Shown: positions 11,927 through 34,253 of the stretch, piece by piece
How the letters are laid out: the number at the start of each line of letters is the position of its first letter
Position numbering within the stretch: the first letter of the stretch is position 1
NCBI GenBank assembly: GCA_000934665.2
Contig: JYFJ02004131.1
Location: 1 to 35,047, forward strand
Reading direction: 5' to 3'
Source: Catajapyx aquilonaris
Taxonomy: Eukaryota
DNA: 35,047 nt
The notes under the pieces: model-generated
Database searches by the model: none
What the model saw: the letters and a program-made list of their open reading frames with translations, nothing else
Told to the model about the DNA's origin: nothing
Program-made: the position numbers and the translations under genes

Positions 11927-12154
11927 AGTTTGGGCTGAGAAAGAAATAATTAATTGAAAGAAAAGTTCACTCAAAAGTTTAATGTGTATAAAAAGTTTTT
12001 AAAATATTTAAATTAAAGTACTAATTTACTCAGAATAATTTAAGAAATAGTTCTGCTGAATATGCTGGCTAGGGTTCTACTTACCTGGAGTGATATAGGC
12101 CTACCCAGTTGGTTGAGCTGATAACTAATGGTTCTGATATTCCTGAGCCTATTG

Positions 12155-15141: not shown

Positions 15142-15285
15142 GTTGTGGAATTATCTGAACAAAAACAAAATGATATTGTACTGGAAACTTGAGCTGTGCA
15201 CCTTGTACTACACCAATACCATTTATACTAACCTGAGGCTGAACCACAGTGGTCAATTCTGTGTTGAAAAATGACTCGAATGTCC

Positions 15286-15292
15286 TTTTATA
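15286..15292 (-). promoter_or_regulatory. Putative TATA box of the 14647-15141 gene
   Basis: TATAAAA on the minus strand upstream of donor CAG|GTTAGT at 15232. Confidence 0.55.
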
Positions 15293-15689
15293 GCATCGAC
15301 TGTTTCCTCCTTCAGTACACCTATCAAAAATAGTGACATCCTAATCTTTTGTATGGCCTATAAAATTTTCCTCCTCATTATCTGCTATTGCCACAAACAC
15401 CTGGAGGAAGAACAGAATCAAGTTATCATCTGTGTTATCATCTAGTTGACTGCTAGATTGTGCAAGTAAGGAAATGAAGTTCCTTCAGATGTAGTGTAAA
15501 GAAATAATTCAAATGCACACCAGCCGTCCGAATCCGCCCGAGCAGTTCCAAGTCAGCCGCAGCAACGCGACTTTTCCTTCCAGTCAGCAGTCCTTTGTGT
15601 GGAGCTTAGGGTTTCTCTCTCTCTGTTTGTGGCCTGACCTCAGGTGACCTGGGGTCGTAGTCTTTGTTGGAGGGGTTGGGTGGGGTAGG

Positions 15690-18600
15690 ATGGAAGGGGC
15701 TGGGATGGTGCTGGAGGCGGTGCTGGTCAACAGGAGGCTGCTGCAGGAGACACTGGAGCAGGGGAAGGGGATCAGAGACTGGATGGAGGCCATGGACAGG
15801 AGGATGGCCGCCATGGAGAACTGGGTCAAGGGGCAAGGAGGGCTGCCCACTGGCCAGGAGAAGTGCTGGCCAGCCCGCCATTGTTCGTTGTTTGAATTAT
15901 GTTAGTCAGAGTACGTATGCTAATTAAGGCGTTTTACACCAGCCGCACCTGGCCAGAGCGCACAGCCGGATGTACAACAGCCAGAAGATGAAGAACGCAC
16001 TTCTTTGAAACTGCCAGGGGAGATCAAAGTTGAGGCGGAATGGGATCCTGTCGAAGAACGACAGGATGCTGACCAGGACGCACATCACGACCAGCGTAAT
16101 GAGCATCAGGTGGGAGGAAAGTGCGTAAAGAAGAGCTTGACACTAATAATTTTCAATTGTAGGCTTCCCTGAGATTGCTAACTACCCATGATGATGGCAC
16201 TAGTGAATCGAAATTCATACCAGGGCCTGAACCTGAAGCCACTGAAGGACCTTCAAGTCTGGGTAATGGTGGGTATTGGTGTGGTTGTAAATTGTTGCAT
16301 TATGCTGATGCTATGTAACTCATCACACTTGGTTTCTTGTGTGCACCTCCAAAGACGGTCGAGAAACTCAATATGAGGGTCGTTTGGGATGCTCTGGGAG
16401 ATCAATGATAACTGAACCAAATTGGGAAGGTGCGAGGTCAGGTGACGTCCTATTACCACCTGAAGGCGTGTATGTCATGGAAGCTGAGCTCAGCAGCACT
16501 CTGGATATTGACGAGACTGAGGTGAGTTGACAAGTGGCGTGTATTGTACCACTAGTGATAGTTGCATATGTTGGGAAAGGCGCTATTCAGCCCCCNTTTT
16601 GTGAAAACCTACAAATGAAAATAGTGGGGACATGTCCCCACTAATTTACACATGTCCCCACTGTAATGGTACACTTCGCGTGTGTGAGACTGTGGGGACC
16701 GACAAATGTCCCCACAATTGGAACTGGTCCCCACAGCTACAGTAAAACCACAGACTTCCGTCCCCAGACCTTAGTCAAGACCTGATCACCTGGGGATGCA
16801 GGACTTGCTAAGAGCACATGAAAAGAGACAGAGTTGCAGGGGGCTGATTAAAGGTAACGACAGCGTGCGTTTCCATTGCATCTCTAAGGCCACTTGCACA
16901 CTTATTGTTATTATTTTAGTGCAGGCCATGTGCGGGCTGGGACGTGGGCATGGGCTAACAACAGGGTTCACGTGGAAACTTCAAGGATCTATTCTAGGGC
17001 CTCAACATCCATACTGTAGTCTACTGGTCATGGAATACTTTGTGTATCACATTGCTATGCAACACTTCATACTTTTGGAGACTCCAAACCAGTAGTTTCG
17101 TCTCCTGCGGCCAAGGATGACCTCGGAGGTCAAGTCAATGTGCTTGTGACCTTCCCAGTAAAAAACTACTCCTAATCATTCCCCTGGGGCATATGTCGAG
17201 ACTTCCGTATGGATTTGCATCGGGATCAGACAGAAAGATAGATATACGTCGAGAAATATGTATTACATTTGACGTACGCTGTAGCGAATTCCATTTGGCT
17301 TGTGAAGAAAAACCTTTTACTTTAAGCATAAGAAAATACTGTACTGTACTGTACTGTGGTTTATAGTTTTATTTTCACAAGTTTTAATTTAGTTCATATG
17401 TTGGGTTAACTTGCATCTCCCGTCATCGCTGACTACCCCTCATAGGGAAATGTCGTGATGTTGTTGCTGTTGTATAAGAAAATACTCAAGTTAATATTAT
17501 CTGAAGTGTATTGTGTACTAAATATACGAGTATAATGCCCTGTGGTTTATTATTGTAGCGTGAGTGGAAAGAGGAACAAGAAATGCAAGAAAGTGATGAT
17601 AGTAATGTGGCTTGTGAGAAATCTGACCGGACATCCAATCCCCAGAGCTCAGACGGTCCTTCAGAGCAGAATGCACATGAAATGGTGAGATATTAGAAAT
17701 GCTTACTAGGAAAACCCCTGCTCCGCTTGCATTTTCCTAAGGCGCAGGTCGAGAAAACCACTCGCTTCGCTCGCTCTTTTCTATGCCTGCGGTGTAGTCC
17801 ATGTTCTTAATGATGCTCATCCAACAATATTATCCGCATCATACTCCCCTCCCCTCGATCTCCCTCCGTGCCACCTGCCTCTGCCCCCTCCTTATATTAA
17901 CCCATTGACGGCTAAGTATATCATAATGATTATGATGGCCTGAGGGTTTTTGAACTACGCAGGTGGAGCCTGAGAGGCTCCAATGGTATATTTAAATCTC
18001 TGCTTATCAACTAAATTGTTATATTGGACTTTACACATTCAGAAACTGCAGTTCAGATCATTAGGCTTCCGAAAACGTAAAAATCACATCCGACAGGGAA
18101 AAATGTTAAGTTAAAGGTTACATCATGTTTGAGCCGCTCGGGCTTCACCTGCATAGGTAGAGCCTGAGCGGTTCCAGGAGGGACCTGTTCCTCATTACGA
18201 ATTTTTTTAAACCAAAGAATAGGGACTAAATTTTTTTTTGTTTCCTTTTCATGCTTAAGAAGGTTTTTCTGACAAAGTCACGGAAGGACAGGGGAAAATA
18301 AAATTCAATGAAAAAGTTACATCGTTTAAATAGTGGTTGGAGCCTCTAAGGCTCCACTTACGTAGTTATAGTCAGTTGTAGCCTACTGCTAGTGACATTT
18401 TCCAAAGTGACAGAAGTGCAAATCGAAGTGATATGGTGCGAACAGAGCGAGTAAGAAATGGTAGGCCTTGGGTGACGTCACTGGCACGGGGGCAACGGAG
18501 AAAAAGGCTTGTCCCCAGCTGGCAACGTCACCCAGGGCCTACCATTTTTGACTTGCATGAGTTGCACTCTATCACTTTGATTTACACTTCTGCCACATCG

Positions 18601-21600
18601 AAAATTGTAGCTAGCAGTACGACGGAATTAATGTCCAGCACTGCACGACAATACCAGTCTTACAAGTACTCAAGCATGTAATTGTCGTGAGCTGATAGTG
18701 TGTACTGGCCAAACATTGCTCGAGTGAATTGGCAGCCGGCCAACCGCTCTGCCACCACCAGCCACCACCACCCCCGCCACAATGAAGAAGCAGGAGCTGG
18801 CATCGCCGCGCTTGGTGACCCAAAGGGAAGGCGCACGGGTTCAAACCAAGCCATCCTGGCCAAGCGGGTAGAAATATTAGGCTGATGTCATTGTCACCGT
18901 CATCATTATCATCATCATTGTCCTGGACATAACTAAGAGATCGCGCGCNGGGGGGGGGGGGGGGGGGGGGGGAGAGAGAGAGAGAGAGGCGAGGGGCATC
19001 CTCCCCGTGCACACGCCACTGCACCTTGCAACGTTACTGCCCTACACTATTTCCTGGTGTTTGTGGCATGTTACCCATTTTAGTTGTGCGCAAAGCTAAC
19101 CTGTTGCAGTAAATGATCATGGAAGAATGAATTCCGAGTTGTTGACATATTATTACTGTGACAGGATGACACAAAACGAGTTGCTTCGGTGACCACTGAG
19201 GAGGAATTGGAAATGGTCCGCAATACTGCTGGAGTATGCGGACCATCAGCAGCAGTCCTCGACTTCCAGCCAGAAAAGGAGCTTGCAACTGATGGGGAAG
19301 AGGTAGAGGAGGAGGACGGACCTGCACCAGCCAAGCGTCCCATGATAGAGGATCGTTTGTGTTGCATATGTGGTTCACTGATGACTTCTGCATCAGATGT
19401 TATGTGTCACATGTGCAACAGTGTTGCCCACATGAAGTGCACTGGGGAAGGACGGGAGGTGGCACCAGGAACGTCCTACACATGTCCACTTTGTGTCTCA
19501 GCAGCTACCATTCACCATGAAAGAGCTGGGGCTCACCAAGGGCTGAAGAGAGGGGTGGAGGACATGCTGAAGAAATCGCACAAGCAGAAGCAAAATCTGG
19601 CTGTGGGTGATTGTGTCCTCTACAGTGTGCCGAAGGTTGACCGGGGACCTGTGGACCCTGAGAATATAGTTGGAGTAATACTGGCTACAAATGAGCATGG
19701 CCTCTTCCAAATGGGGACCAAAAAGGGCATCATCAATGGCTGGCATAGGGAAGAGGACCTGTGCAAGACCCTGGTGCAGTTTGTGACCCTTGATGATGTG
19801 CGTCAGGATAAGACTTTATCAGTCAGGGAGGCAATGGCTGCGTTCTCGGGGGGGCAAGGGTTCAGGAAGTGCATGTGCCAGCTGTCAAAGGTACGATGCC
19901 AAACTGCTAGATGTGGTTGCTTCCAGAAAAGCATGCTCTGTAACTCGAGATGTCATAAGAGCACACCATGTGGCAATAAATAGTTGGAAGCAATATCCTG
20001 CCTACGTTTATGGGAAACAGGGACAACATCATGTTAATGTTTCAGTTAATGACGTTCACAGTAAGTATATGTTTACTTGGGAAAGTGCCACTGCTGGGAA
20101 CACCATTTGAGTTATTGGAAATCAAAACTCTGAGTCATGAGTCACTGGGCGCAAGTTGAGTACTTTCCTCTCTCTGCATTATTTGACGCAAGTTGAGTTC
20201 ATGGAGATGACAAATGTTGCATTGATTTCACCGATGCAACTCATTTTGTGTCATTCTGTTACAGTAATAATATGTCAACAACTAGGAATTCATTCTTCCA
20301 TGATCATTTACTGCAACAGGTTAGCTTTGCGCACAACTAAAATGGGTAACATGCACAACCACCAGGAAATAGTGTGGGGCAGTAACGTTGAAGATGCAGT
20401 GGCACCCCCCCNGACCCCCCCCCCCCCCCCATCCCCCCGCGATCTCTTAGTAATGTCCAGGACAATGATGATGATAATAATGATGACGGTGATAATGACA
20501 TCAGCCTAATATTTCTACCCACTTGACCAGGACGGCTCGGTTTGAACCGTGCTCTTTCCCTTTGCGTCACCAAGCGTGGCGATGCCAGCTCCTGCTTCTT
20601 CATTGTGGTGGCTGGTGGGGGCAGAGTGGTTGGCCGGCTGCCAATTCACTTGAGCACTGTTCGGCCAGTACACACTATCGGCTCACGACATATACATATA
20701 GGAAATACCCATTTTACGCTGGTAATTGGTTCCAGCAACACAATGGGTGAATTGGGAGTAAGATGAAGAGGTGTAAAAGGGGTACTTCCTGTATAAGCGA
20801 TTTGAACTAGTTAAATTGTCATAATTTATGAATAAGGTGTCTCTTACTAGTGAGACTTCCTGCTGCCAGAGTATGTATTTGTCCAAAAGAAGTCGAGAAT
20901 GTAGGGTGAAAGATGTGGAGGAATCAACCAGTAATGGTGTAGATTGCAGACAACAAGACACTTGTGCCTTTTCCTAGACACCTCTGACAACAAACATTGT
21001 AGTCATTGACCGGAAGAACAGCATGTGAATTTGCAATGGTTGCATGGAATTAGCATATGCATGTAATAATGATTACTGTGCATGAGGCAACGTTGCAAAT
21101 TTTGTCCCCTATTGCATAGTACTCATGATCACTTTTACGTCCTGCTCCCTAGGCAACCATTTCTAATTCACAAGCTGTTTTGCCTTCAACAACTGAAATG
21201 TGGGTTGTCTAGGGAAAGCAAATGCATCAGGTCAGCCCAAAGAGTTCTGATATCCTCCTGAGACCTGAGAAGAATTTTTAAAGCAATGTCAGTTCCTATT
21301 GCATTTTCTGAACATTTTCCCAATAAGAAATGAGAAAAAAAATTTAGTTTTCAAAAATCGACAAAAATAGTGACAAACAACCAATGAGAACATTAGGACC
21401 CAATTGTTGCTACAAAAGCAGAACGGATGAAAGCTGAAAATTGAAATACCACTTAATGGATCACTCACATAGTGCTCTATCCTCAAAACAATGTTTTTAA
21501 AATTCATTTGTGGAATTTGTGGTAGCAATTCCTCTCAGAAGACAATGAAAGATAAATGAAATTATTTTTGAATGCCACCACTCCAGGCATTGGGCTTGCT

Positions 21601-24600
21601 CCTTCCCTTCTTACCCCCTAACATGGTACCTTGCTATTCTAGATTTTAAAACTGAACTGCATAGTGCAAAGCACACTTCCTTATGGGTGTATAAAGTCAC
21701 AGCCCATTCAGCTAAAAATGCCATTTTTCGGATGTCCATTTAAATGGGCATTTGGTCTCAGGAAGAAAAGAAAATGATCAGTTCTCTACAGCAACAAAGA
21801 TTGTAACAGGCACATCTTTTCGTATTTCCTAATACACATTCCTTGTGAATCCCAGGACATTCACTGCATTGCGAAAATCTCACTCTAAATATGAGTAAAA
21901 AAATAAAACTGATCAGATGAGCGCCTAGCTTCAGCAGCGGAATCCGCCATATTCATAAGTGATTCAATTTTCGCCGCCAAAGTCAGATATTCAACCCTAG
22001 GTGGCTACACCTATTGAGGCCAGATTGTAATCATGGGATACCAACATATTACAGTTCTCTTGGCATCACTAGTTGGCGCCAAAAAAATCTTTTGCTGATG
22101 TCGACATATGTCGATATCAGGTCTCAGGAGGATATAATATACCTAGAGAGGAAGTACTCCCTATCCTTTCCCATTAGCCAGGGAGAGGCAGCTGCCATCT
22201 TTACCATGGGCATATTGTTGCCTGACTTACATTTCAGCCCAAGTACTTTCTCTAGGTATACAGGGTGTATCAGAGTCACGAGTCAAGCAGGAGCGAGGGG
22301 TGGGGAAAAATTGTAGGTGGCGACAACCCCAGTCGGTTTTATAAAACAATTAGAAATACGGCAGTAATCAATTTATTTATTACGGTCTACGGTGTGACGT
22401 CACATCCTTTCTGTATTCAAATTGACCCCCGCGGACTGGCAAATGCAAGGCAAATGCTACACCGGCAGGGTAAGTACCCTGCCGGTGTAGCATGAGAGCG
22501 CCTTTTTCAGTGCAACCCGCAAGGCTAAAAACCCGTTCAACCAGGTTCAACAGAAAGCATTTGCCTTGCATTTGCCAGTCCGCGGGGGTCAATTCGAATA
22601 CAGAAAGGATGTGACGTCACGCCGTAAACCGTAATAAATAAATTGATTACTGCCGTATTTCTAATTGTTTTATAAAACCGACCGGGGTTGTCGCCACCTA
22701 CGATTTTTCCCCACCCCCTCGCTCCCGCTTGACCCGTGACTCTGATACACCCTGTATATTATAGCAGAACTCTTTGGGTCAGTCACATCATTACCCATTG
22801 ATCCTTTGACCTTTCCCATCCCTACATTTTGGACTTGTTTTGGGACAATGGTTACACTGGTGGCCAAAAGTCTCACCAGTGAAAAAGCACCCTGAATGTA
22901 ACACTTCCGTGACCATAAGGATTACTTTTGATACACATGTGCTTCAAGGCACATCTATCATATTAAAATCCTTATTTGTTTGTATAAGTCCTCTGATTGG
23001 TCTGCCCCCATATTGTTGTCACCGCCACATTCCGATTGGCCCCGTCCAATGTTACCTGGACGTGTTGTTACCATGACGCCTCCTATTGGCCCTCGTTCCG
23101 AGCATGCGCAATGGGTGGAAGAACGCCACTGTTGCTTGCTGGACGTCAACGAGGACTCATCTCCTCTCCCGTGAAGACCCCTAGCTACCCATCCACCTTC
23201 CTCCACCCACATCTTCACAGTGACCTCACAACAGGGGAGGGGGAGAGGAGCGGGAAATGGAACGTGCCATAAACAAACCGAATCGAATATTGGCCAAGGT
23301 CGGGATGTTGTTTATCAGTGGTGCCAACTCCATGGACATTTATGAACAAAGTAAAATAATCAGTTTCAGTTTTCTAAACAAGGTCCTTCGTGTCACCCTT
23401 GTGGGAAGAGTTTGGTAGCAGGATTAGCCGCGATATTCAACACTGAACCCGGAGATTGCCCGAGAATGTCAAAAGAAAGTGGCGGGAAGAATTAAAACAG
23501 TTTTTGATCATCTAATACAAACACTGGAGAAGAGTTCCATGGCTGTTTATAATAGGGGGGAGTTATGAACAGTTAGAAAGACGTGGTCGGAATGTGTGCA
23601 TATAATTTATGTACATGTGCGAGTAGAGGCAGTGAAGAGGTTGTGAATTTCTGTTCATACAATAATTTATTGGTGTTTTTTTTTAAATTCAAAAGGTATT
23701 GGTACCATATGTTGAAGTGGGCAAATGCGTATTTCCCAGCCAATGCAAAGGTGGGATTGCAGATTGGTTGCAGGGTAGGGAATCACAGATTATGTGAATG
23801 CATGGAGGAACTGGTGGGGTTGGGGGGCATGCATATGATTGGCATCATCACTGGCTATAAGTCCAAAGTATAACTGAAAATATGGTGGGCACTGTAGGCC
23901 GCAGGCCTAGAAAAAAGCGAGCGAAGCGAGTGGTTTTCTACGCCTGCGCCATAGAAAAATGCGAGCGTAGCGAGGGTTTTACTAGTATATTATTTACTTT
24001 TACAGTGTATGTGACAATATTTTTTTATTTTGCTCTAGGAATACTGGAAACTGCAGGTGACACCAAAGGCAGCTGATAATGATCTTTCACCAAAATCCAG
24101 CACATCTTCAGACACAGGAATTCCAGGCCAATCAATAACAAAGAAAGTGAGTTGTAATCTTGATTTTAAAAAGTACTCTAGACTTTTGATACATGGTAAG
24201 GCTCAAGTTCAGTGAATGTTCAGATATCTCCAACTAGCAGGTTACCCGGCGTTGCCCGGGTATGTTGGGGTGCTGGTAAAGGTAGGGGTGCATATACAGT
24301 ACCGTATTTTAGGAAGTGTGTTTGTTTGTAAAAATTTCCCTTCAATACACTCGAAACTCGATATGTCTTAAAACAGGCCCTGTAAGTTGCAATAAGCCAA
24401 AGTTTGTCACTATCTGTGATAGATTACCTGCTTGTCTTATAGCGTATAGTCGACACAGATATTCTGATTGGATGTGTAAAAAGAGGAATGCGGATGGAGT
24501 TGGCCCAGGAAAAGACTGCACAACCATGTGTTTTTTCCCATGCATTTTTGACAGCTTGACCCCCCAACCCCACTTCACACCCCCACCTCGTTCCATATGT

Positions 24601-27600
24601 TTGCTCTGAAGAACTTTAGAAATGTACCTACAGATTCATGGTCTGAAATTTTGTTTTCAACCCGGAGTAATATTTGTAAATACTGTATTATTTTATTGTA
24701 TTTATTTTTGTCTGGAAGTCTACTTTCAAATCCCACAAAATCCTGGAATGACCACTTATACGATACGAACTCACTTGAGGTGGGCGATTAGCGTAATTGA
24801 TGGATGCGTTGAATTTTTTATGATTATGATGATGATGATGATGTGTATTTTGATAGGTATTGTTGCATAAGGGCATTTCCATGGGAATGCTAATTGATAT
24901 ATTACTATTTGTTGATGTAAGTTAATTTTTGAGGCCAGAGTAGTGACAAGATTCGGGAATATGCATGTTGTGGGAGTTAGGTTCATTTTCGGAAGCTGAA
25001 ACATGCGGCGTTAGATTCCTTGGAAAATGTAACCCCCGATATGCTAGTTTAAGGCGGTGTAGGGGCCTTCCCCTGGATTTCTATAAGGGACAAACAAACA
25101 AACTCACAAACAAACTAAAATATAGATATAGATAGATGAAAAGAATGTTACAAGTTCGATCATGCACATGCACGTTGCACACACTGTGGTGCTAACTCAA
25201 GTACATTAGTAAAAAATCCATCATTAGTCACATGCATTGCACTCAAGATGTCTGAACATCACTGAACCTTTTAGTCCCACCATGTATAACAAACTTCAAG
25301 GGACCATCTGGTCCTCTGGGACGGGGAGACGGGGAACAAGCTCCACGGGGTGAAGCCGGTCCTCTCCCCCTGGGGGTCCTCCTCCCGTCCCGACAGGAGG
25401 GAGGAGGTCGTTCTGGCCAGGCTCAGGATGGGGCACACCCGCCTCACCCACGGCCACCTCCTCAGGGGCGGGGACGGCCCCCCTCTCTGCGGCCACTGCC
25501 ACCAGGCCCCTTCTCTGACGGTCCAGCACATGCTGCTGGACTGTCCTGCATTGCACCAACTCCGCCTAGACACCGGTCTCCTGCGGGCGGGAGATCCCGC
25601 TCCTTCCACCCTCGCTCATCTGCTGTCCGACTCCGCGGACCCCACTGTTATGTTGGCTCTCTTTTCTTTTTTGAAAAGAACCAACATGTATAGAGATCTA
25701 TAACCGTTGCATTTTAAAAATATACTCGTAGCGTTTTGTTTCACTTGTTACACTCTATTGAAATTTTATAGTCGCTACTGTAATAAATGCTCAAGTAATA
25801 AGATAATTAATTAATTAATTAATTATCTCATTTTTTTTAAAAAACAAAAAAAAACAAAAGAAACACACATTTTTGTTCAGTTAACGTTGGGGGTGGGGTG
25901 GCCTTGCCTGCCCTCCCCTACAACGTCACAGGACACAGGTGCTTGGCGCAGTATAGCCATTGCTGCTGTTGCGCCATTAAACCATTAATCAATCAATCAA
26001 TCAATCAAGGGACCATGGAAATCAGTCTGCTCTAACCAAGGTCTGTTGTTGCCAAATACGCAAGGACTTATGGTATATGGCAGGACTAGCCTTACGAGTC
26101 TGCCATAACGAAGGGTCTGTTATAGCCGAGGCTGTTATATCCAGAGCCTACTGTATTTACTAAGGGCCGGTTGCACCAGTCACGGTATATGGAACGGTAT
26201 ATGGAAGAACCCTGCACCGCGGGTACACGGTATATCCCATGAAAAACCGCGGGTTTATTCCATAGCGTTGCACCGGTCCAGATAAACGGGGGGTTTTCGG
26301 TAGAATGCTGGCCCATGAGAGACGTAAGCGGGCAAAAATTTTGGAGGGCGCTGATTGGATCGCAGCACCCGTGACGTCATGGAAGTATGGGTAGTCGTCT
26401 CGTATCTACGGCAACCATGTGGCAGGGTTGCCACCTGGTGTCACACAGTACACGAAATCCATAGCCCCATGACAACACCATAAACCCGCGGTATAAGCAA
26501 CATGTGCTGCAGGATCGGCGGGTAGATGGATCGGGCGGTAAATGGGAGGGAGAACGGGCCATTTTAGAACAACCGTAGGTGGCGCAACACTTCTCGCGGT
26601 ATACCGGAGTCAACACCCGCCGTTTTCCATATACCGTGACTGGTGCAACCGGCCCTAAGTGCATAATATGAAAGCGTTACAGGACTCTAGTAACTATGCT
26701 GCACTTGCAATTCTGAGAGAGAGAAAAAAATCTGTGGATGTATTGTGATGATGAGTCGTGAAAGTTTTAGTACAGTGAAACCTGTAGAAGGAAAAAAATT
26801 CTCATCATTTCTGCTACACACTCTCTTGATTCCAAAGGACATGGTCTGCCAGGTCTTGTTTAGGTTTCAGGTGGTATACACAAAATCTGAAAAAATATAT
26901 TGCTTGTGAGTTACAAGATAGGGAGGTTTAGTATAATTTTTTTTCCCCCCTTGTCTGTGAGATGGACAGGAATGAGGAAAGTGTCATACATGCACTAAAA
27001 TAGGTTTTGTTGTTATTGTTGTTTTAACATATCAGTTAATCACCTGGGCGTAGTAGGCTTTCTGGCTTTTTGGCCTTCATTGTGACTGTCTGACACCATG
27101 TAGACTAATCCAGGGAAATATTTGTTACATAACACTTACCTTTTAAACATTTTCATCTTGATACATCTCCTTTGGTGAAGTTTTGCCTAAAGATATACTC
27201 AGTGATGGAATTCTCATCTCACATGTCTTTTTATCCCATGCAAAACTTCATCTAAGAAATTTTGTCTGAGACATTGCCTGAAGAGATTTGGTTTGAAGAA
27301 TTTTCATGCCCATTCATCCAACACAATATTCTTGTCAGATGTACCCAATCACGAAATGATTCGGACAAAGTCTTGCTTTGATGAAAATGTGATAAACAAC
27401 GTGAAGAAAGCTATTGGAGTGTTGATGTATTGCTCTAAGAAGTAACACCTTGGGATATCTAAAATTATATTACCTAAGCGGAAAGCATAAGCTACTGCAT
27501 AAAGTTTTTATGCAGTAGCTAAATTCTAGCTTCAAAATAAGGTTAATCTGAAGTCAGCACAAGGTGGCCCCCAACACAGTGTTACACAATTTGGGTGAGT

Positions 27601-30600
27601 ATATTTTATCAAAGGTATTATGTTGTGAAAGTTACAACTCATAATGTATCCCTTATCATTTATATTAATTTCTTCTACTGGAGCAGCTGGAACAGTTCAA
27701 TTCGGGACAAGCAATAATGGATGTTATGATGGAAGTGGGTGATGCCAGTGTTGACGAAGGTCAGAATTACTATGAAGCTGAAACAACAAATTGGGTGCAA
27801 GGAAGTTACAATCACAAACGTCTCAAGTATCAAGAGGAAAGAGAGCAGATATTACTTGGAAAAGGGTAAGAATTTGTCTGAGTAGTGCCAAATATTGCAT
27901 TAAAAAGTAAGAGTGGCCTTCATAGCAAATGTGGCCCTGAGTGCTGATATGTTAAGGGTTGTTCCAGCATCTCTTTTATCGTAGGCCTAAGTACTTCCCA
28001 TTGTTTAAGCACAGTTGGTATACCTGGTTTTAAGAGGTTATCCAGCATTTGCTCCTTGGCTATCTCATTGCTGTGTCAAGTCCTATTTTCATTAAGAAAT
28101 TTTTTCAGTTGGCCTGAGAGCCATTATTTTTCCACCTGTTGAAAAAATATACCATATAATTGAATCACTGAAAACGAAATGGTCCCAAGTCCACATTTTG
28201 GCCAAATTGAGTTAGAGGCGGGAAAGTGGCCTACATAGTAGCAGGCACACACACTTGGAATGATAATGTCCCAAGTACCATCTTTGCCATCAAAATGAGG
28301 GAGCAGGAAAAGTAGGAGAGAATGGAAAAATTCCAGGTTCGGGACTTGGGACCTTCCCGAACTGTGCAGTTGGCCGCGCTGCATGCGCCTTTTGTTAAAC
28401 ATGGCTGACATGGGAGGCAATGCTTGCAGTGACCCCAGCGATTCTGAGTCCTGTTCCCGGCGAAGAAAACGTCCTCGGCCGAAGGGATGGAAGGCAAATA
28501 ATAACAAGTTTCTGAGGCATGCTGGCCAGGCGTATGAAGACTACAAGGGCCAGCCAAGACCGGCACGAGTAACTGGAACAGCCTGCAGGTGAGACAAATG
28601 CCCGGTGTGGCTGACTCATAACATATCTTACGGCATGCCATGCCTTTCTCAAGCAATGCAATGTAGATGTATCCTACGGTAGGTGCAAGAGAGAGTGCCT
28701 GTCTAAATTCAGTGACCCATGTAAGGCCGCACTGTTGGCTGAATTTAACAAACTGGCACATAAGAATTCCCAGGACGCATACCTGACATTCATGATTCAC
28801 CCAAGAAAAGTAGCCAGGCGACGTCCAAGGAAAGAAGATTCCACAGCATTCCGATCACACTCGTTCGTGTACACGGTATGGCATAGTAACGATGCTGGTG
28901 TAGCGTGGGAAAAATCAGTCATGCGTGCTATGATCAATCATTACTTATGTTATGGGTTTTCCCCTTAGATTCAGCAAGGTGAATGCGAAATGGTCATATG
29001 CAGGGAAGCCTTCGCCAGCCTGTTTGGGATTGGCATTAGGCGTGTAAGGAGACTGGGGCAATGTGTTGCGACAGTCTAGTCACCCAAGGATCTACACGGA
29101 ACACACCCCAACAGCTCCCGAGAGCTGAATGCTGAACAAAGGGACACAATATATTGACAGCCACATCAAATCATTTCCCTACAGAGTGGCTCATTATGGG
29201 TTTGCTGGTAATAAGCGTAGGTATTTGCCGTGCGATTTAAATGTAAAACTCATGTACACCTTGTATCTAGAGAAGCATTATCCGGAGGCCTACCTGAAGG
29301 TGAAGGCAGGCACTAATGCAGAGAGTGTGGCTTGCCAGATTAAGTACTCCTATTATCTGAATTACTACAGGGTAAATGTCAATTACCCCTTTGGTAGGCC
29401 ACAAATTGATGTGTGCAACACATGTTCACAACTCAAAACCACCTTGACTCATGAGAAAAACCATGCTATTAGGCAACGGTTCAAGCAAGACCTACAACTG
29501 CATAAGTGTAAGGCAAGATTGTTTTACAGTTGTCTATGTGAGTGTCAGGAAAGTGCTCAGGTAACAGATTCATTAGATGTCATATGCTTTGATATTGAGA
29601 AGAATTTCCCTGTACCTAAGTTGAACGTGAATGAAATATTCTACTGCAGGCAATTATGGGTCTATAACCTGTGCATTTTCAGTGGGAAACGGCAAGAATC
29701 CAAAATGTACATGCATTGCGAGCATGAGGCGCAAAGAGGGGGGTTAATGAGGTCATTTCATGCTTGAATGACTACCTTCAGAAGTACTTGTCACCTGGGG
29801 TAACAGACCTTATCATTTTTACTGACAGTTGCCCTGGTCAGAACCTGAACTATACCATGGTCCACTACCTCTTTTCCCTTGTATCACTGGGTCACTTTAG
29901 GTCGATCACGCACTATTTACCTACGAAAGGCCACAGTTATCTGCCCTGTGACAGGCAATTCTGACCATTGAGAGGGCCAGGAGGAGTACAGAAAGGGTCG
30001 AGCTTCCAACAGAGTGGGAAACCATTGTGGGGAAAAAATTCTCTGTTGTCCATATGGATGGGAAGTCCGTAAAAGATTACAAGGGACATTTCACCAGTAT
30101 CTTCAAGAAGAGTGTCACATGCAGGAAGCACACATTTCTGGTGTCAAAGTGCAAAGTACTACAATATTCGCAGTCACATAGGCATGCTGTGAAAGTGTTG
30201 CAGCTCATGTCAGGGTGTGATCCAGTGTTTTATCGCATTCAAAAGCCACGTACAACTGTTTCACTGCCTACGAATGTGTCATGTTATCCTGGGAATATTG
30301 CGGTGAAAAGGTAAAAGTTGTCAGATTTGCTCAAACTGAGGAAGTATTTGTCGCCAGCAGCAGCTCAGTTTTACTCCAACTTGGCAACACAGGATGGGGA
30401 TGTGTCAGATATGTCAGAAACTGATGATGAGCAATAAAAAATCTGATGTATGATGTTTGTGTTGGTGTTTCTCCAATCTTTAAACATGTTCCTGCATTTA
30501 TTTGCTGAGAAATTGCTGCATGGGAAGGTCTGGAAGGTGCGCAAAATGAAAAGGTCGCACTCCAACGACTTTGAAGGTGTCCTGCTCAAAGGTCATGAGG

Positions 30601-32496
30601 TGAGCAATGTCAACAAACTGATATCTCAACAAGCAAGCAGGTGCCCTATCCTCTGGCAGGGCTCCCAAACCTATTTTTCACTGGGCAATCTAGGAAAACA
30701 GTTTTTTGTTTCTCCTGAATAGTTGTGGTGCTTGGACTTGGGACCGTTTCGTTTTCAGTGATTCAATTTAGAATTTATATGGATCAGTATAGTTTTCTCT
30801 GGTTTGTAGTGTGGCTGCAAACCTTGTCATAAGTGTTTAACTGATTTTAAAATGCTTATTCTGTATTATTTTGTTGTTTCTAATAGCTACTTTCCTGCAT
30901 GTAATTATTACAAACTTACTACTGAGTGCCAATGAACTGTTTCCATTTCCTGTTCTACCAGAAATTCTCTGATCCTACCATTGCTCCTTCATGGGATATT
31001 ATTCTCGATGGGTGGGATGGAAGGGATTTTCTGGGGTTGCTGGAGTGTTATCTACAGTATTCAGGGTGGTAGTCTGTGATAAGGACACTGTGTCACACCC
31101 GTTGTCATCCAGAATCGAAAATATACAAGAAGCATATTTTCGACATGTGCATGTGCATGTGTCAATTCAAGCTACTCACTTGTCATACTCTAAGTTTAAT
31201 TGTAACTGGTTGCACCAAACACTAATGATGATCTGCATCAATTTACTTTATAGACTTCCTTCAGGACACTTGGTAAAAGCTAAGCCAAACTGGTCAGTGG
31301 AAACCATGAAAGAAGCATTTTTAGCAGTGAAACAAGACAAAAGGAAAATACGGGAAGTTGCTCGATCATTCCAGGCAAGCTACTTCTAATTAATATACTG
31401 CATACTTAATGCAAATAAGGCATAACATTTAACAGTTTCACATGTATTTGATTTATTCCAGGTGCCAATGTCCACTTTACGTGATCGTGTAAGAACTGGT
31501 GTGTGTGACCCAGGCATAGGACGCAAGCCAGTGTTTTCCCATGAAGAAGAAAAGGAACTGGAAGTGCTGCTGATTACCATATCAAAATTCTTTTATGGTG
31601 TACCATGCATAGAACTTCGCAGATTTGCTTACGAGTTTGCTGAAATGAAACAAATTAAACACCCATTCAATACTGGGGCCCGGCTGGCTGGTTATGACTG
31701 GCTTCAGGGATATTTGAAGCGATACCCAGATGTGGGGATATGCAAACCTCTGTTACGTGTAAAGCAAACTAGTGAAAGGGTGGCTCTGTTCTATTCAGAT
31801 CTTGCATCTGCAATGGAAAAGTACAAGTTCACACCAGACAGAATATTCAATGCCACTGAGGTGACAGTTATCAAACCAAAGGCACTAAAGCTTCTCGGTA
31901 CTGCAGGTATCAAGGAACAAGGGCACGGAGTTACTATGTTTTGTGCGTCATCTGCATCTGGCACGTTTGTATCTCCCATGATAGTATTTTCTCACATGCT
32001 GCAAGTGGACCTTCTGCTTGATGAATATGGCCCTCCTGGTGCTACTTATCACTCTTCTGGGAATGGAGGGATGAATATTGATCTGTTCTTTACCTGGAAT
32101 CAGTGCTTATGTGAACATGCCAATCCGAGTCCAGAAAATCCCATCCTTCTCATCCTTGATATCAACAGCTGCTATTTATCACTGAAGACTTATTCCTTTT
32201 GGCTTGAACATGGAATTGTTGCAATTTGCATCCCACCTGGTACTTCCCTTCAACCACTAGGTTTGTCATTCTACAGCTCCTTGAAAAGTGCATTTAACAC
32301 TGAGACTGATTTGTTTCTGATAACTCACCATAACGAGAAAGTAACCCCAATTGTCATAGCTTCAATACTGCGGAAAGCGTACGGACAAAGTGCAAAAGCT
32401 GGGAAGGTTATTGATGGGTTTCATAAAACTGGGATATGGCCTTCTAACGCAAGAACTTTCAACAGTGACAACTATGTTCCTGCAGACTCGATTTAG
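15690..32496 (+). CDS. Predicted host gene fused to a pogo/Tigger-derived domain, ~731 aa, 9 exons
   Basis: Phase-consistent exons 15690-15882 (or -15900), 15943-16109, 16163-16262, 16355-16521, 17559-17684, 24039-24146, 27687-27865, 31254-31374, 31462-32496; helical N-terminus, IKVE motif, acidic S/D/E/P linkers, then WSVETMKEAFLAV..IREVARSFQVPMSTLRDRV (psq HTH). Confidence 0.68.
16622..16784 (-). mobile_element. Probable DNA-transposon end with repeated GTCCCCAC/GTGGGGAC motifs
   Basis: 22-bp perfect palindrome TAGTGGGGACATGTCCCCACTA (16622-16643) plus several more motif copies; minus strand starts CAGG at 16784; partner end not found, and an N lies at 16596. Confidence 0.4.
17953..18367. 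mobile_element. MITE, possibly piggyBac-like
   Basis: TIR AACTACGCAGGTGGAGCCTGAGAGGCTCCAA / TTGGAGCCTCTAAGGCTCCACTTACGTAGTT; flanks TGAA and TTAT resemble decayed TTAA. Confidence 0.7.
18384..18619. mobile_element. Foldback MITE with TA ends, 236 bp
   Basis: TACTGCTAG...CTAGCAGTA; arms pair along the whole length, best in the core AAATGGTAGGCCTTGGGTGACGT / ACGTCACCCAGGGCCTACCATTT. Confidence 0.75.
18683..20690 (+). mobile_element. Non-autonomous Ginger-like DNA transposon with ~500-bp TIRs
   Basis: TGT...ACA termini (TGTCGTGAGC / GCTCACGACA); 18683-19192 is inverted at 20228-20690; internal ORF resembles the C-terminus of Ginger/KRBA2-like integrase-type transposases; TSD not exact (TAAT vs TATA). 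Confidence 0.72.
19189..19983 (+). CDS. C-terminal fragment of a Ginger/KRBA2-like transposase (PHD-like finger, VGD..VPKVDRG region, Cys-rich tail); no integrase core
   Basis: CCICG..MCHMCNSVAHMKC..YTCPLC; VGDCVLYSVPKVDRGPVDPENIVGVI; SVREA..SGGQGFRKCMC..C..RCGC..CNSRCH..CGNK; open for 264 codons from a GTG. Confidence 0.7.
   Translation: MTTEEELEMVRNTAGVCGPSAAVLDFQPEKELATDGEEVEEEDGPAPAKRPMIEDRLCCICGSLMTSASDVMCHMCNSVAHMKCTGEGREVAPGTSYTCPLCVSAATIHHERAGAHQGLKRGVEDMLKKSHKQKQNLAVGDCVLYSVPKVDRGPVDPENIVGVILATNEHGLFQMGTKKGIINGWHREEDLCKTLVQFVTLDDVRQDKTLSVREAMAAFSGGQGFRKCMCQLSKVRCQTARCGCFQKSMLCNSRCHKSTPCGNK
20698..20793. mobile_element. Small MITE-like inverted repeat
   Basis: ATAGGAAATACCCATTTTAC vs GTAAAAGGGGTACTTCCTGT. 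Confidence 0.5.
22261..22754. mobile_element. Tc1/mariner-type MITE, 494 bp, ~200-bp TIRs
   Basis: TA|CAGGGTGTATCAGAGTCACG ... CGTGACTCTGATACACCCTG|TA; arms nearly identical. Confidence 0.9.
24233..25137 (+). mobile_element. Non-autonomous Helitron/Helentron-like (DINE-1/Lep1-type) element
   Basis: 5' ACTAGCAGGTTACCCGGCGTTGCCCGGG short hairpin; 3' (CAAA)n microsatellite followed by TATAGATATAGATAGAT. Confidence 0.6.
25308..26006 (+). mobile_element. 5'-truncated LINE (I-group, Nimb/I-like) with target-site duplication
   Basis: ORF2 C-terminus RREEVVLARLRMGHTRLTH..CGHC..LTVQHMLLDC (stop 25703); 3' stem GGCGCA..TGCGCC, then TAAA and an (AATC)n tail; TCAAGGGACCAT repeated at 25296-25307 and 26005-26016. 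Confidence 0.9.
26164..26655. mobile_element. PIF/Harbinger-type MITE, 492 bp
   Basis: Perfect 31-bp TIR GGGCCGGTTGCACCAGTCACGGTATATGGAA; TAA TSD on both sides. Confidence 0.92.
28162..30764 (+). mobile_element. Sola1-like DNA transposon, full length 2603 bp
   Basis: 32-bp TIR GAATCACTGAAAACGAAA(T/C)GGTCCCAAGTCCA; AATT TSD on both sides; internal transposase remnants. Confidence 0.85.
28401..30436 (+). pseudogene. Disrupted Sola1-like transposase
   Basis: Motifs DVCNTC, CFDIEKN, FYCRQLWVYN, FTDSCPGQN, GHSYLPCDRQF; introns 28589-28682 and 28876-28968; in-frame TAG at 29077 and frameshifts near 29130, 29740 and 29960-30030. Confidence 0.8.
31254..32496 (+). CDS. pogo/Tigger transposase-derived exons (HTH_psq, CENP-B/Tc5 HTH, DDE_1) lacking two catalytic Asp
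   Basis: GRKPVFSHEEEKEL, ELRRFAYEFAE, AGYDWLQGYLKRYP, RIFNATE, LLILD, LQPLGLSFY, GFHKTGIWP; split by GC-AG intron 31375-31461; AATAAA at 33100. Confidence 0.88.
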
Positions 32497-33833
32497 GCTT
32501 GAGTTGTAGAGACTTTCACCCAAATCAGCTGAGCACCATAATGGCATGGTAACAAGAAGTGAAGAACCACCACATGCATAAATTGATCCTTCATCCACCC
32601 TTTAGTGTTTAGTGTATCAAGTTCCAAAAAAATTCCACTTCCGGAAAAGAATCATGAAGCTGCTCATGAAAGAAGGTCAGAGATAGGATTGAAAGTCATT
32701 CTGCGATTTTTTCAGCAACACCTTGTGTATAGACTTGCAAGCAAGTAGGGAAATGAGGGAGCAAAAACCTAATCTGGCTACTAAGGGAAATCCAGTTCAA
32801 TGGCAGGATCAAAGATGTGCCAGCAATAGTGTGGAAGAAAAGACTGGTGCTTGCTATTAATCCATTTCATGATGAGCAGGACAGTGATGATTAAGAGGAT
32901 GCATTAGAAGCTGGACATGTCAGTGTGAAACATGTTCAGATTCATGCTAATGAATGCAGCCATGTTGCAGCATAAGCATTTGTGTGATTTTTCAGTTCAC
33001 TAGTATTTAAATAACATGGGATGCATAGAAGCTATGCTATCCTTGCATTGCAATTTTTGTAGTAAACTGTTATTTGTTGTTACAAATTTGTTAATAAGAA
33101 ATAAAGGTAATGTTTATGGAAAATGTAGATATATTTCTTTAGCAATGCATAATTGCTCATTTTAGAGGCAGCAAACCAAACCTATTCTCATGTTGCATTG
33201 TGAAGTGGACTTGGAGATAGAACTAGGTAGAGAGAGCCCCATATACCATAAGTGATTAGCCATGACCAAATCATTTCATAATTAAATTTTATTAATAATT
33301 TATCATCAATGCTGCTGTTATTCTAAAATTGTGAACGTAAGTTCTGGTAGATAACCAGTTCACTTCCAATCACAAAAATGTAGTTTCATTTTTTTGGCTT
33401 TTCTTTTAGTTGCTCTCTATTGACAAACCCTAAAAGGTGTTGGAAATGGAAAGCATTGTGGGTCAGGAGGACAGGGGTTTCCCATAACCCATACGTATTC
33501 CAGTGACCCTGGGCTCAAAAGCTAAGGCTAGCTCTACATTTACAAAAAAATTTATTCTACTCCAGACGTAATAAGCAAGGTCTAGGTAATAAGAGCCTCG
33601 GCTATAAGCAACCCTCAGTTATAGCCAACTCGAAAGGCTGGTCCTACCATACTATCATATAATTATGTCCTGTGTATTTGGATATACTGTAGGATACTTA
33701 TTTTTTCGGTGGTTCCTTTAAGTTTTTTACATCTAGAATCTATTGTAATTAGTACCAATTCTTGTGCATCTGCAATTTTCATAGAGTGGGAGCTAAATAG
33801 TTAATAATGCAAACCATGAAACATTTTTTTCAG

Positions 33834-34253
33834 GTAAAGGTAAAGACAAGACAAAATTACACCTGTGAAAGGACCGAGTATGGAAGCTACCACTTTAAGA
33901 GGGGCAAGACAGCCACAGAGAAAAATAGTATGACCAGCGACACAAGTGTTGATGGCCAGAGAAGTGAAGTAGTGAAAAAGAAACACATTTCATATCAATT
34001 GTACAAGTGCCAGTTGTGTTCCTTTACCACTAATGACAGGCCCAATTGGAGTAGGCACCAAAAAATGCACACGGGAATTCAACCACATGCTTGTAGCTTG
34101 TGTGAGAAGAGATTCAATCGTAAGGACCATTTGCAAAGGCACATTTCTCTAATTCATGTCAGAGAAAAGCCTCATCCTTGTGAAATATGTGGAAAGACCT
34201 TTGCCATGAGATATAATCTTAAGCTTCATATGAAGGTTCATTTGAAAAACTAA
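33834..34253 (+). CDS. Terminal exon encoding three C2H2 zinc fingers
   Basis: CQLC..HQKMH-TGIQP-CSLC..HISLIH-VREKP-CEIC..HMKVH; strong acceptor TTTTTTTCAG at 33833 (phase 0). Confidence 0.85.
   Translation, partial: VKVKTRQNYTCERTEYGSYHFKRGKTATEKNSMTSDTSVDGQRSEVVKKKHISYQLYKCQLCSFTTNDRPNWSRHQKMHTGIQPHACSLCEKRFNRKDHLQRHISLIHVREKPHPCEICGKTFAMRYNLKLHMKVHLKN

What the first reader, a model, noticed from the sequence alone, without database searches (positions are those of the whole stretch)
15690..32496. Host gene spliced in frame onto a pogo/Tigger transposase: candidate domesticated fusion gene
Seen: seven short exons spread over 12 kb, mostly missing from the ORF track, chain with matching phases (1,0,1,0,0,0,2). 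The phase-2 donor at 27865 fits exactly the acceptor TTACTTTATAG at 31253 that opens the psq-HTH. The transposase part has no ATG at its natural start, and I found no flanking pogo TIRs. Known: transposase capture by splicing produces new regulators (SETMAR, CSB-PGBD3, POGK). Inference: a ~731-aa lineage-specific DNA-binding regulator.
Basis: partly seen in the sequence, partly recalled or inferred. Interest (0 to 1): 0.85.

Follow-up and report, generated by a model that had tools for sequence, protein, structure and literature searches.

The report
Catalytically dead pogo transposase captured by splicing
A jumping-gene enzyme of the pogo type has lost its cutting residues and its own start codon but kept an intact reading frame, and it seems to be expressed as the tail of a spliced host transcript, a known route by which animals make new DNA-binding proteins.

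Summary
The transposase half of the finding is real. Bases 31254-32496 (+) encode a Passer-like pogo transposase remnant. It has a psq helix-turn-helix split by an 87-nt GC-AG intron, a second HTH and a DDE_1 core. A good splice acceptor lies one base before the codon where relatives have their start ATG; that codon now reads CTT. Two of three catalytic aspartates are gone (T-D-G, against D-D-D in at least 69 of 71 relatives). The C-terminal ~200 residues are missing and no convincing TIRs flank it. The 384-codon frame is nevertheless intact, which neutral decay seldom allows (0 of 400 simulations at the observed loss of conserved residues).

The 27865/31254 junction has indirect support. A 240-nt contig of an unlabelled, transcriptome-like run covers 27687-27864, and depth book-keeping places its other 62 letters in the bin that holds 31254.

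The rest of the "host gene" is unproven. Exons 1-4 (15690-16521) form a non-random chain but have no homologue and no proven link. Exons 5-6 cannot be identified.

Verdict: a probable domesticated host-transposase fusion of at least 434 aa, a new member of a known kind. The 731-aa model is not established.

The parts
27687..27865 (+). Upstream coding exon: 179 nt, enters in phase 0 and leaves in phase 2. It holds an ATG at 27717 with A at -3 and G at +4. From that ATG it adds 49 codons plus 2 bases, about 50 residues new to the family.
   Evidence: CAG|C acceptor and AAAAGG|GTAAGA donor. X5 contig record 19 lies on 27687-27864 with no differences and starts exactly at the acceptor. The DNA here is at single-copy depth, about 29-32 in X1 and X2. 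No Pfam or Atlas match.
27866..31253 (+). Intron of 3388 nt. 2611 nt of it is a nested TIR-bounded DNA transposon (28158-30768), so the intron was 777 nt before that insertion.
   Evidence: GT..AG ends. 36-nt inverted ends at 28158-28193 and 30733-30768, 97% alike. Weak DUF7869 match at 29728-29964.
31254..31374 (+). First transposase-derived exon: the N-terminus and the first two thirds of the psq-type helix-turn-helix. The ancestral start codon is now CTT at 31255.
   Evidence: Aligns without gaps to residues 1-40 of 16 relatives. In relative P0018 the matching stretch is Pfam HTH_psq at E 3.3e-11. The piece alone gives no Pfam hit.
31375..31461 (+). 87-nt GC-AG intron inside the psq HTH. 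It is in the same frame as its flanks but holds stop codons.
   Evidence: CAG|GCAAGC ... TTATTCCAG|G. No counterpart in relatives. Its removal is inferred; no RNA contig covers it.
31462..32496 (+). Main transposase-derived exon (344 codons plus stop): the end of the psq HTH, a CENP-B/Tc5-type HTH region and a degenerate DDE_1 core reading T-100-D-33-G in place of the family's D-108/109-D-35-D. The stop falls where relatives continue for a median of 204 residues.
   Evidence: AlphaFold2 model with mean pLDDT 86.1, whose best PDB folds are Mos1, the SETMAR transposase domain and Sleeping Beauty. X5 contigs lie on 31509-31876, 31984-32136 and 32120-32603 with no differences.
32497..32881 (+). 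3' untranslated stretch, as far as contigs reach.
   Evidence: X5 contigs on 32120-32603 and 32627-32881. The true 3' end is not known.
15690..16521 (+). Candidate four-exon 5' part of a gene: 15690-15900, 16018-16109, 16163-16268 and 16355-16521, 576 nt in all, ending in phase 0. Its link to the exon at 27687 is not shown.
   Evidence: It is the only chain of this kind from ATG 15690, and 0 of 300 shuffles give one as long. Single-copy DNA depth. No Pfam, Atlas or homologue match.
33834..34253 (+). Neighbouring exon-like ORF with C2H2 zinc fingers and a phase-0 acceptor. It may be the terminal exon of a parental host gene. It is not shown to belong to the finding.
   Evidence: zf-C2H2 at E 2.5e-15. 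Acceptor TTTTTTTCAG|G needs incoming phase 0, which fits exon 4 at 16521 but not the phase-2 donor at 27865.

Best explanation
This is an immobile, catalytically dead remnant of a Passer-like (DD35D) pogo transposon that now serves as the 3' coding exons of a spliced cellular transcript.

SHOWN
- The ancestral ATG is gone (CTT at 31255), and an acceptor sits one base upstream of it.
- Aspartates 1 and 3 of the triad are replaced by T and G.
- The HxSH and PPHxSH motifs, about 18 residues of internal sequence and the C-terminal ~200 residues (which in part of the relatives end in a cysteine-rich, PHD-like finger) are lost.
- The 384 codons nevertheless stay open.

INFERRED FROM CONTIG BOOK-KEEPING
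- An exon at 27687-27865 is spliced onto 31254.

INFERRED
- The 87-nt GC-AG intron is removed.
- Translation starts at ATG 27717, or further upstream, and gives a protein of at least 434 aa.
- The protein keeps the two helix-turn-helix DNA-binding modules and an inert RNase-H-like core. It binds DNA sequence-specifically, most plausibly at ends of its parent transposon family, and cannot cut.
- Whether further upstream exons add a host effector domain is open.
For: FAMILY AND DECAY
- phmmer found 6679 relatives at E<=0.001, the best 40% identical.
- In 71 relatives of 480 aa or more, D1 is D in 70, D2 in 71 and D3 in 69. The window reads T, D, G.
- The D2-D3 spacing is 35 residues in 64 of 71 relatives. 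Gao et al. 2020 (PMC7386202, passages read) give DD35D as the signature of Passer and Fot elements.
- The window keeps 39 of 62 family-conserved columns, while 69 of 71 relatives keep at least 84%.
- It carries 8 deletions and 2 insertions relative to the majority, none of which breaks the frame.

OPEN FRAME AGAINST NEUTRAL DECAY
- Simulated neutral substitution leaves the frame stop-free in 53 of 400 runs at 10% amino-acid change.
- The figure falls to 9 of 400 at 20% and 0 of 400 at 37%, the observed loss at conserved columns.

ACCEPTOR AT THE ANCESTRAL START
-. This matches 8 of 9 host-transposase fusions traced by Cosby et al. 2020 (bioRxiv 10.1101/2020.05.07.082677, section 5 read).

SPLICING
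- X5 record 19 is 240 nt long. It lies on 27687-27864 and has 62 letters left.
- The G at 27865 equals the G at 31253, so ending at 27864 is what a 27865|31254 joint would give.
- Depth in bin 31042-31658 exceeds the listed pieces by 239.8, against 62 x 3.9 = 241.8. Four other bins balance to within 2.
- X5 has 31.8 million letters in 85611 contigs and covers this stretch in patches that match the exons. I read that as transcriptome-like.

FOLD
- The model has pLDDT 86.1 and its best PDB matches are Mos1 and the SETMAR transposase domain.
Against: - No run is on record as RNA, and the kind of X5 is unknown.
- The joint itself was not printed.
- No contig covers the 31374/31462 junction.
- No orthologue or close paralogue exists in the libraries (best 40%). 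So there is no dN/dS and no synteny, and copy number in the genome could not be measured.
- Some of the 23 lost conserved residues and the in-frame indels may predate inactivation in an unsampled, divergent but active subfamily. That would weaken the neutral-decay argument.
- Loss is not significantly concentrated at the active site: 8 of 16 columns kept near it against 31 of 46 elsewhere, p = 0.24.
- The DDE_1 score is barely above the cut-off.
- The N-terminal addition has no recognisable domain.
- In-frame ATGs at 31225 and 31228 would allow an unspliced product.
Confidence: 0.55

Rival explanations
1. A seven-exon host gene starting at ATG 15690 is spliced through to the transposase and gives a ~731-aa protein.
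For: - Exons 1-4 (15690-16521) form a unique ATG-started chain with short introns of 117, 53 and 86 nt and phases 1,0,1,0. 0 of 300 shuffles give a chain as long.
- The chain ends in phase 0, and the 27687 exon enters in phase 0.
- The X5 contig begins exactly at the 27687 acceptor, as expected where an assembly graph branches at an exon boundary. About 89 depth-units in that bin are unexplained, which would fit a roughly 30-nt overlap from an upstream-exon contig.
Against: - Nothing links 16521 to 27687, 11 kb away across high-copy repeats (X1 depth in the thousands).
- Exons 5-6 can be chosen from 35 symmetric candidates.
- Exon 1 has a weak donor, 3.45 on my score.
- There is no Pfam, Atlas or sequence homologue for any of these exons.
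- The 27687 exon has its own well-placed ATG.
Confidence: 0.15
2. A transcribed but functionless relic. The dead transposon copy is merely exonised into a non-coding or aberrant transcript, and its open frame is luck or youth.
For: - No orthologues were found.
- The catalytic residues are lost, the C-terminus is truncated and the Pfam score is marginal.
- The added N-terminus has no domain.
- X5 depth is low, 2-8.
- At 10% post-inactivation divergence, 53 of 400 neutral runs stay open.
Against: - 37% of family-conserved columns are changed and at least 10 indels are all in frame. At 20% neutral change or more, at most 9 of 400 runs stay open.
- The splice is in frame, and the acceptor replaces the start codon precisely.
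Confidence: 0.25
3. A stand-alone transposase-derived gene translated from ATG 31225 or 31228 with no upstream exon. The 27687 exon would belong to another transcript.
For: - In-frame ATGs lie 9-10 codons upstream of the acceptor, within the same open frame 30973-31389.
- One relative, P0010, has a similar short N-terminal extension.
Against: - The start M of 15 of 16 relatives aligns to 31255, not to 31225.
- The contig book-keeping favours the spliced form.
Confidence: 0.04
4. An active or recently active autonomous pogo transposon copy.
For: - A long open frame with clear pogo homology.
- A marginal 26-31-nt inverted repeat flanks the frame at 31195-31225 and 32602-32632.
Against: - D1 and D3 are lost, the C-terminal third is missing and there is no ATG at the start.
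- 3 of 60 shuffles match the inverted repeat, and it is best matched at its inner ends, not its outer ends.
Confidence: 0.01

Closest known systems
KRABINER, SETMAR and CSB-PGBD3 type host-transposase fusions (Cosby et al. 2020, bioRxiv 10.1101/2020.05.07.082677; abstract and section 5 read)
   Same: [quoted passage not shown] The transposase exons are separate from the upstream exon. A C2H2 zinc-finger exon lies downstream on the same strand, which recalls the mariner insertion in the last intron of ZNF112.
   Different: Those fusions are vertebrate genes whose host domain is recognised (KRAB, SET, CSB) and for which conservation or function has been shown. Here the added part has no known domain, no orthologue is known, and the parental gene is not identified. 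KRABINER keeps a full-length transposase, whereas this one is truncated and has lost two catalytic aspartates.
POGK and POGZ, the Passer-derived chimeric pogo genes of vertebrates (Gao et al. 2020, PMC7386202; passages read)
   Same: They share the pogo subgroup signature (DD35D relatives, a psq/Brk-type HTH plus a Tc5-type HTH) and the architecture of host N-terminus followed by transposase. POGK also has a degenerate triad (DN35D).
   Different: This is not an orthologue; the best identity to anything in 1.84 billion representatives is 40%. There is no KRAB domain or zinc-finger array in the supported part. The triad is more degraded (T-D-G) and the spacing is shortened to 33. I did not compare the window directly with POGK or POGZ sequences.
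CENP-B, JRK, the TIGD genes and the lineage-restricted Tc1/mariner-derived genes of Drosophila (PMC7386202, passages; Guseva et al. 2026, PMC13548663, abstract only)
   Same: These are stationary pogo or Tc1/mariner transposase genes that kept the DNA-binding module while the DDE triad decayed. They lack TIRs.
   Different: Most of those derive from complete transposase genes without captured exons, and they are defined by conservation across species. That could not be tested here.

Membership tests
pogo superfamily transposase (Passer-like, DD35D) | N-terminal psq/CENP-B-type helix-turn-helix modules followed by a DDE_1 (RNase-H-like) core | tested here: met
   DDE_1 scores 24.7 bits against a cut-off of 22. 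The spliced N-terminus aligns without gaps to 16 relatives, one of which (P0018) scores HTH_psq at E 3.3e-11. The fold model matches Mos1, SETMAR and Sleeping Beauty transposases. HTH_psq itself is not detected in the window's separate pieces.
pogo superfamily transposase (Passer-like, DD35D) | Intact catalytic triad D..D..35..D | tested here: not met
   The window reads T, D, G with a spacing of 33. Relatives have D in 70, 71 and 69 of 71 at the three positions, and a spacing of 35 in 64 of 71.
pogo superfamily transposase (Passer-like, DD35D) | Terminal inverted repeats with a target-site duplication | tested here: not met
   The best flanking inverted repeat is 31 nt at 77%. 3 of 60 shuffles of the region match it. 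No TSD was sought beyond this.
Host-transposase fusion gene (sensu Cosby et al.) | Transposase exons joined by splicing, in frame, to upstream non-transposon exon(s) | tested here: inconclusive
   Donor, acceptor and frame all fit. One X5 contig ends at the donor, and depth book-keeping places its other 62 letters in the bin that holds 31254. The joint was not printed, and the run is not labelled as RNA.
Host-transposase fusion gene (sensu Cosby et al.) | [quoted passage not shown] | tested here: met
   The AG at 31252-31253 is followed one base later by the codon (31255) that aligns with the start M of 15 of 16 relatives. Relatives have a median of 40 residues before the 31462-aligned point, equal to the 40 codons of the exon.
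Host-transposase fusion gene (sensu Cosby et al.) | Host part derived from an identifiable cellular gene or domain | tested here: not met
   No Pfam family was found for the 4 reproduced upstream exons, for exon 7 or for two of the 35 exon-5/6 candidates (10 pieces scanned in all). Atlas gave nothing usable. No homologue of exon 1 among longer proteins: 73 candidates, none at E<=1.
Domesticated (exapted) transposase gene | Purifying selection and orthologues at a syntenic locus in other species | not testable with these tools
   No protein above 40% identity in three searches. No genome is held for the window. Only an indirect single-sequence argument is available: an open frame despite 37% loss of conserved columns, with 0 of 400 neutral runs staying open.
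Domesticated (exapted) transposase gene | Single, immobile copy | not testable with these tools
   The flanks at 26753-30605 are at single-copy depth in X1 and X2. No DNA contig was laid on 31042-32892, and the tool states that such a hole proves nothing.

The most novel reading that the evidence does not exclude
This would be a gene birth of the KRABINER type caught in an invertebrate. A Passer-like pogo element landed in the last intron of a C2H2 zinc-finger gene whose 5' exons are 15690-16521 and whose zinc-finger exon is 33834-34250. Both ends are in phase 0. The upstream exons are now alternatively spliced, through the 27687 exon, onto the transposase. One promoter would then make both a zinc-finger protein and a 636-731-aa protein that carries the transposon's own DNA-binding domain.
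Probability: 0.12. Interest if true: 0.7.

Novelty: new member of a known kind. Interest (0 to 1): 0.5.

Why it matters
Transposase capture by splicing has been documented systematically in tetrapods (Cosby et al.). Pogo domestication has been catalogued in vertebrates (Gao et al.) and in Drosophila (Guseva et al.). A well-supported case in another animal lineage would extend the pattern. It would have the acceptor sitting exactly on the lost start codon and the active site already dismantled.

Such a case would also supply a young fusion in which the steps of gene birth can still be read: loss of the ATG, use of the acceptor, loss of catalysis, and a later transposon insertion into the new intron. 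As it stands, this is a promising candidate and not a demonstrated new regulator.

Tried and rejected
DEAD ENDS
- Whole-genome copy count: no genome is held for this window.
- Earlier findings of this scan: nothing by place or by sequence.
- RNA evidence: no RNA holder is listed. The only non-source run, X5, is of unknown kind.

PARTS WITHOUT X5 COVER
- By book-keeping, 31315-31508, which holds the 87-nt intron, is also uncovered.
- Per the tool, lack of cover is not used as evidence either way.

DNA RUNS
- X1 and X2 show no contig on 31042-32892 although X1 holds all sampled words of 27600-32700. A filter may have dropped the record, so no copy-number conclusion is drawn.

SEARCHES THAT FOUND NOTHING
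- Pfam on 10 pieces: the 4 reproduced upstream exons, exon 7, the psq exon, two of the 35 exon-5/6 candidates and two antisense ORFs. No family was found on the + strand pieces, and only chance-level hits (E 0.089 and 0.16) on the two antisense ORFs.
- ESM Atlas on exon 7 and exon 1: no usable hit; the best score, 0.84, is below the tool's lead threshold.
- Homologues of exon 1 among longer proteins: none.
- PDB by sequence: one hit at E 0.89, meaningless.

IDEAS CONSIDERED AND DROPPED
- A minus-strand gene under exons 1-4. The minus-strand chains from 15814 and 15793 reach their length only by running into the real CBM_14 ORF at 14742-15110, so this does not compete.
- Loss of conserved residues concentrated at the active site: not significant (p = 0.24).
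- The inverted repeat 31195-31225 / 32602-32632 as degenerate TIRs: marginal (3 of 60 shuffles).
- My first reading that ATG 31225 is the natural start, as in P0010. I dropped it after 15 of 16 relatives aligned their M to 31255.

CAVEAT
- Splice-site scores come from a home-made matrix built on recalled consensus frequencies, not a trained model. Treat them as rough.
Full report
SETTING

The window is animal DNA, rich in transposons. No whole genome is held for it, and this scan has no earlier notes on it. The interval 15690-32496 holds single-copy stretches at 15000-16595 and 26753-30605, with depth about 22-35 in the DNA runs X1 and X2. Between them lie roughly 10 kb of high-copy repeats at 16234-26722, with depth in the thousands.

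THE TRANSPOSASE PART

A 356-codon open frame at 31426-32496 matches Pfam DDE_1 only weakly: E 2e-5 and 24.7 bits against a cut-off of 22.

- Word-based searches found 9 relatives of similar length and 8 longer ones, the best 33% and 37% identical.
- An exhaustive phmmer scan of 1.84 billion representatives found 6679 relatives at E<=0.001, the best 40% identical.
- Nothing closer exists in these libraries, so no orthologue or recent paralogue is known.

The relatives are typically 590-640 aa. Where I scanned them, they carry HTH_psq, a weak Tc5-type HTH, DDE_1 and in one case a C-terminal PHD-like finger (P0010 and P0018).

I took 71 relatives of at least 480 aa, chosen from hits P0018-P0099 plus P0010 and P0011. 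Shorter hits were dropped.

- The three catalytic aspartates are D in 70, 71 and 69 of the 71. The window reads T, D and G.
- The D2-D3 spacing is 35 in 64 of 71 relatives and 33 in the window.
- Gao et al. 2020 (PMC7386202, passages read) give DD35D as the mark of Passer and Fot elements and derive POGK and POGZ from Passer.
- The window keeps 39 of 62 columns that at least 85% of relatives share, whereas 69 of 71 relatives keep at least 84% of them.
- It has 8 deletions and 2 insertions against the majority.
- It stops where relatives go on for a median of 204 residues. tblastn finds no trace of that tail downstream.
- An AlphaFold2 model built on 48 relatives (mean pLDDT 86.1) finds Mos1, the SETMAR transposase domain and Sleeping Beauty as best folds. 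The relatives' alignment largely drives that model.

THE START OF THE TRANSPOSASE

Relatives have a median of 40 residues before the position aligned to 31462. The stretch 31255-31374 holds exactly 40 codons. In an alignment with 16 relatives it fits without a gap at the 31374|31462 join. Two things follow.

- The 87 nt at 31375-31461 are an intron. It reads CAG|GCAAGC at its 5' end and TTATTCCAG|G at its 3' end, a GC-AG type, and it holds stops. No RNA contig covers it, so its removal is inferred.
- The family's start methionine aligns with CTT at 31255 in 15 of 16 relatives. The acceptor TTACTTTATAG|A ends one base before that codon.

In-frame ATGs do exist 9-10 codons upstream, at 31225 and 31228. 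Cosby et al. [quoted passage not shown]

TIRS

The best inverted repeat around the frame is 31195-31225 against 32602-32632, 31 nt at 77%. In my own ungapped scan, 3 of 60 dinucleotide shuffles did as well. It matches best at its inner ends, not its outer ends. I count it as no TIR.

IS THE OPEN FRAME MORE THAN LUCK?

I started from the spliced 384-codon sequence and applied random substitutions.

- At 10% amino-acid change the frame stayed stop-free in 53 of 400 runs.
- At 20% it stayed stop-free in 9 of 400 runs.
- At 37%, the share of family-conserved columns the window has lost, it stayed stop-free in 0 of 400 runs.

All of the at least 10 indels also keep the frame. This argues that the sequence went on evolving as a coding sequence after it ceased to be a working transposase.

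Two cautions apply. Part of the divergence may have arisen in an unsampled active subfamily. And the loss is not significantly concentrated at the active site: 8 of 16 columns kept near it against 31 of 46 elsewhere, p = 0.24.

THE SPLICE FROM 27865

The sequence AAAAGG|GTAAGA at 27865/27866 is a strong donor. The exon leaves two bases which, with the A at 31254, make a glycine codon and then read LPSGHLVKAKPNW... in the psq frame.

No run is on record as RNA. Run X5, from a different study and year than the source runs, has 31.8 million letters in 85611 contigs. It covers this stretch in patches at depth 2-8 and leaves neighbouring single-copy DNA uncovered. I read that as transcriptome-like.

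- X5 contigs lie, without a single difference, on 27687-27864, 31509-31876, 31984-32136, 32120-32603 and 32627-32881.
- The first is a 240-nt record. Only its letters 1-178 lie there, and it begins exactly after the CAG acceptor at 27684-27686.
- The G at 27865 equals the G at 31253, so a 27865|31254 joint would be reported as ending at 27864.
- The joint itself is not among the 15 joints printed; 91 more were not shown.
- The depth tables can be balanced. In four bins the listed pieces account for the X5 depth to within 2 units.
- In bin 31042-31658 they fall short by 239.8, and 62 letters at that record's depth of 3.9 give 241.8.
- No loose end is listed at 27864, although shorter X5 loose ends are.

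I put the junction at about 0.8. It is not directly seen.

WHAT THE SUPPORTED EXON ADDS

Exon 27687-27865 is open throughout and holds an ATG at 27717 with A at -3 and G at +4. From there the spliced frame is 434 codons. The roughly 50 added residues have no Pfam family and no Atlas neighbour.

The intron between this exon and 31254 holds a nested 2.6-kb element at 28158-30768 with 36-nt ends 97% alike and a weak DUF7869 match. Before that insertion the intron was 777 nt.

- No chain of 576 nt or more arose in 300 dinucleotide shuffles of 15600-16600, and 1 of 300 reached 450 nt.
- Across the real window, comparable chains occur at 8 plus-strand and 7 minus-strand loci, several of them real genes or their antisense.
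- The minus-strand chains at this locus only borrow the CBM_14 ORF.
- So something gene-like is probably there. It has no family, no Atlas neighbour and no homologue, and its first donor is weak.
- Exons 5 and 6 must each be phase 0 to phase 0. With relaxed thresholds, 35 such candidates lie between 16522 and 27684, all inside repeats.
- Nothing ties 16521 to 27687.
- A surplus of about 89 depth-units in the bin of exon 7 would fit a roughly 30-nt overlap from a contig carrying some upstream exon, but this is conjecture.

A NEIGHBOUR WORTH NOTING

At 33834-34250 (+) lies a C2H2 zinc-finger exon (E 2.5e-15) behind a TTTTTTTCAG acceptor that needs incoming phase 0. That phase fits the donor at 16521 and not the donor at 27865.

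If exons 1-4 and this exon are one gene, the layout would mirror the birth of KRABINER in the last intron of ZNF112 (Cosby et al., section 5). I laid no reads beyond 33500, so this is untested.

VERDICT

The most likely reading (0.55) is a domesticated, catalytically dead, Passer-like pogo transposase. It would be expressed as the 3' exons of a spliced mRNA with at least one non-transposon 5' coding exon and would act as a DNA-binding protein.

The main rival (0.25) is a transcribed relic without function.

It is a new member of a known kind. The reports I found cover vertebrates and Drosophila (search listings). I did not search specifically for other invertebrate cases, and I did not open the supplements of the three papers read.

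Noticed in passing
window 28158-30768: A 2.6-kb element with 36-nt terminal inverted repeats 97% alike (28158-28193 and 30733-30768). It carries ORF pieces in several frames, one with a weak DUF7869 match. It sits inside the intron between the 27687 exon and the transposase exon. X5 has a 502-nt contig on 29479-29980 with one difference, so the element, or the pre-mRNA around it, is transcribed.
   Followed up: partly
window 33801-34253 (+): An ORF with C2H2 zinc fingers (zf-C2H2 E 2.5e-15) behind a good phase-0 acceptor at 33834, 1.3 kb downstream of the transposase stop on the same strand. It may be a separate gene or the parental terminal exon.
   Followed up: partly
window 18676-20697: Long inverted arms at about 18676-19192 and 20228-20697, 90-96% complementary in pieces. 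They enclose a 273-codon ORF (19162-19983) with a sub-threshold PHD match. It looks like a transposon with long TIRs. Several of the candidate exons 5-6 fall inside it.
   Followed up: partly
window 7786-8754, 11027-11998, 14647-15150 (all minus strand): Three single-exon ORFs whose hydrophobic N-termini look by eye like signal peptides. Two of them were scanned and match chitin-binding Peritrophin-A (CBM_14) domains (E 2.1e-38 and 2.7e-20). The one at 11027-11998 resembles them by eye only. Together they look like a tandem gene cluster upstream of the finding.
   Followed up: partly
window 22257-22758 and 26154-26665: Two MITE-like near-palindromic elements. The first has 162-nt arms 97% complementary, and the second has 41-nt ends 93% complementary.
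   Followed up: no
window 31042-32892: The DNA runs X1 and X2 have no contig laid on this stretch, although X1 holds all sampled words of 27600-32700. A record filter is the likely cause. It blocked any view of copy number for the transposase.
   Followed up: no
window 25290-25703 (+): An ORF whose motif (RLRMGHTRLTHGHLL ... CGHC) recalls, from memory only, the C-terminal end of non-LTR retrotransposon ORF2 proteins. It gave no Pfam hit.
   Followed up: no
window 18930-18960, 20400-20430 and 16597: Three N bases in the window. Two of them fall in the G-rich and C-rich runs of the inverted arms at 18.9 kb and 20.4 kb, which suggests assembly uncertainty at these repeats.
   Followed up: no
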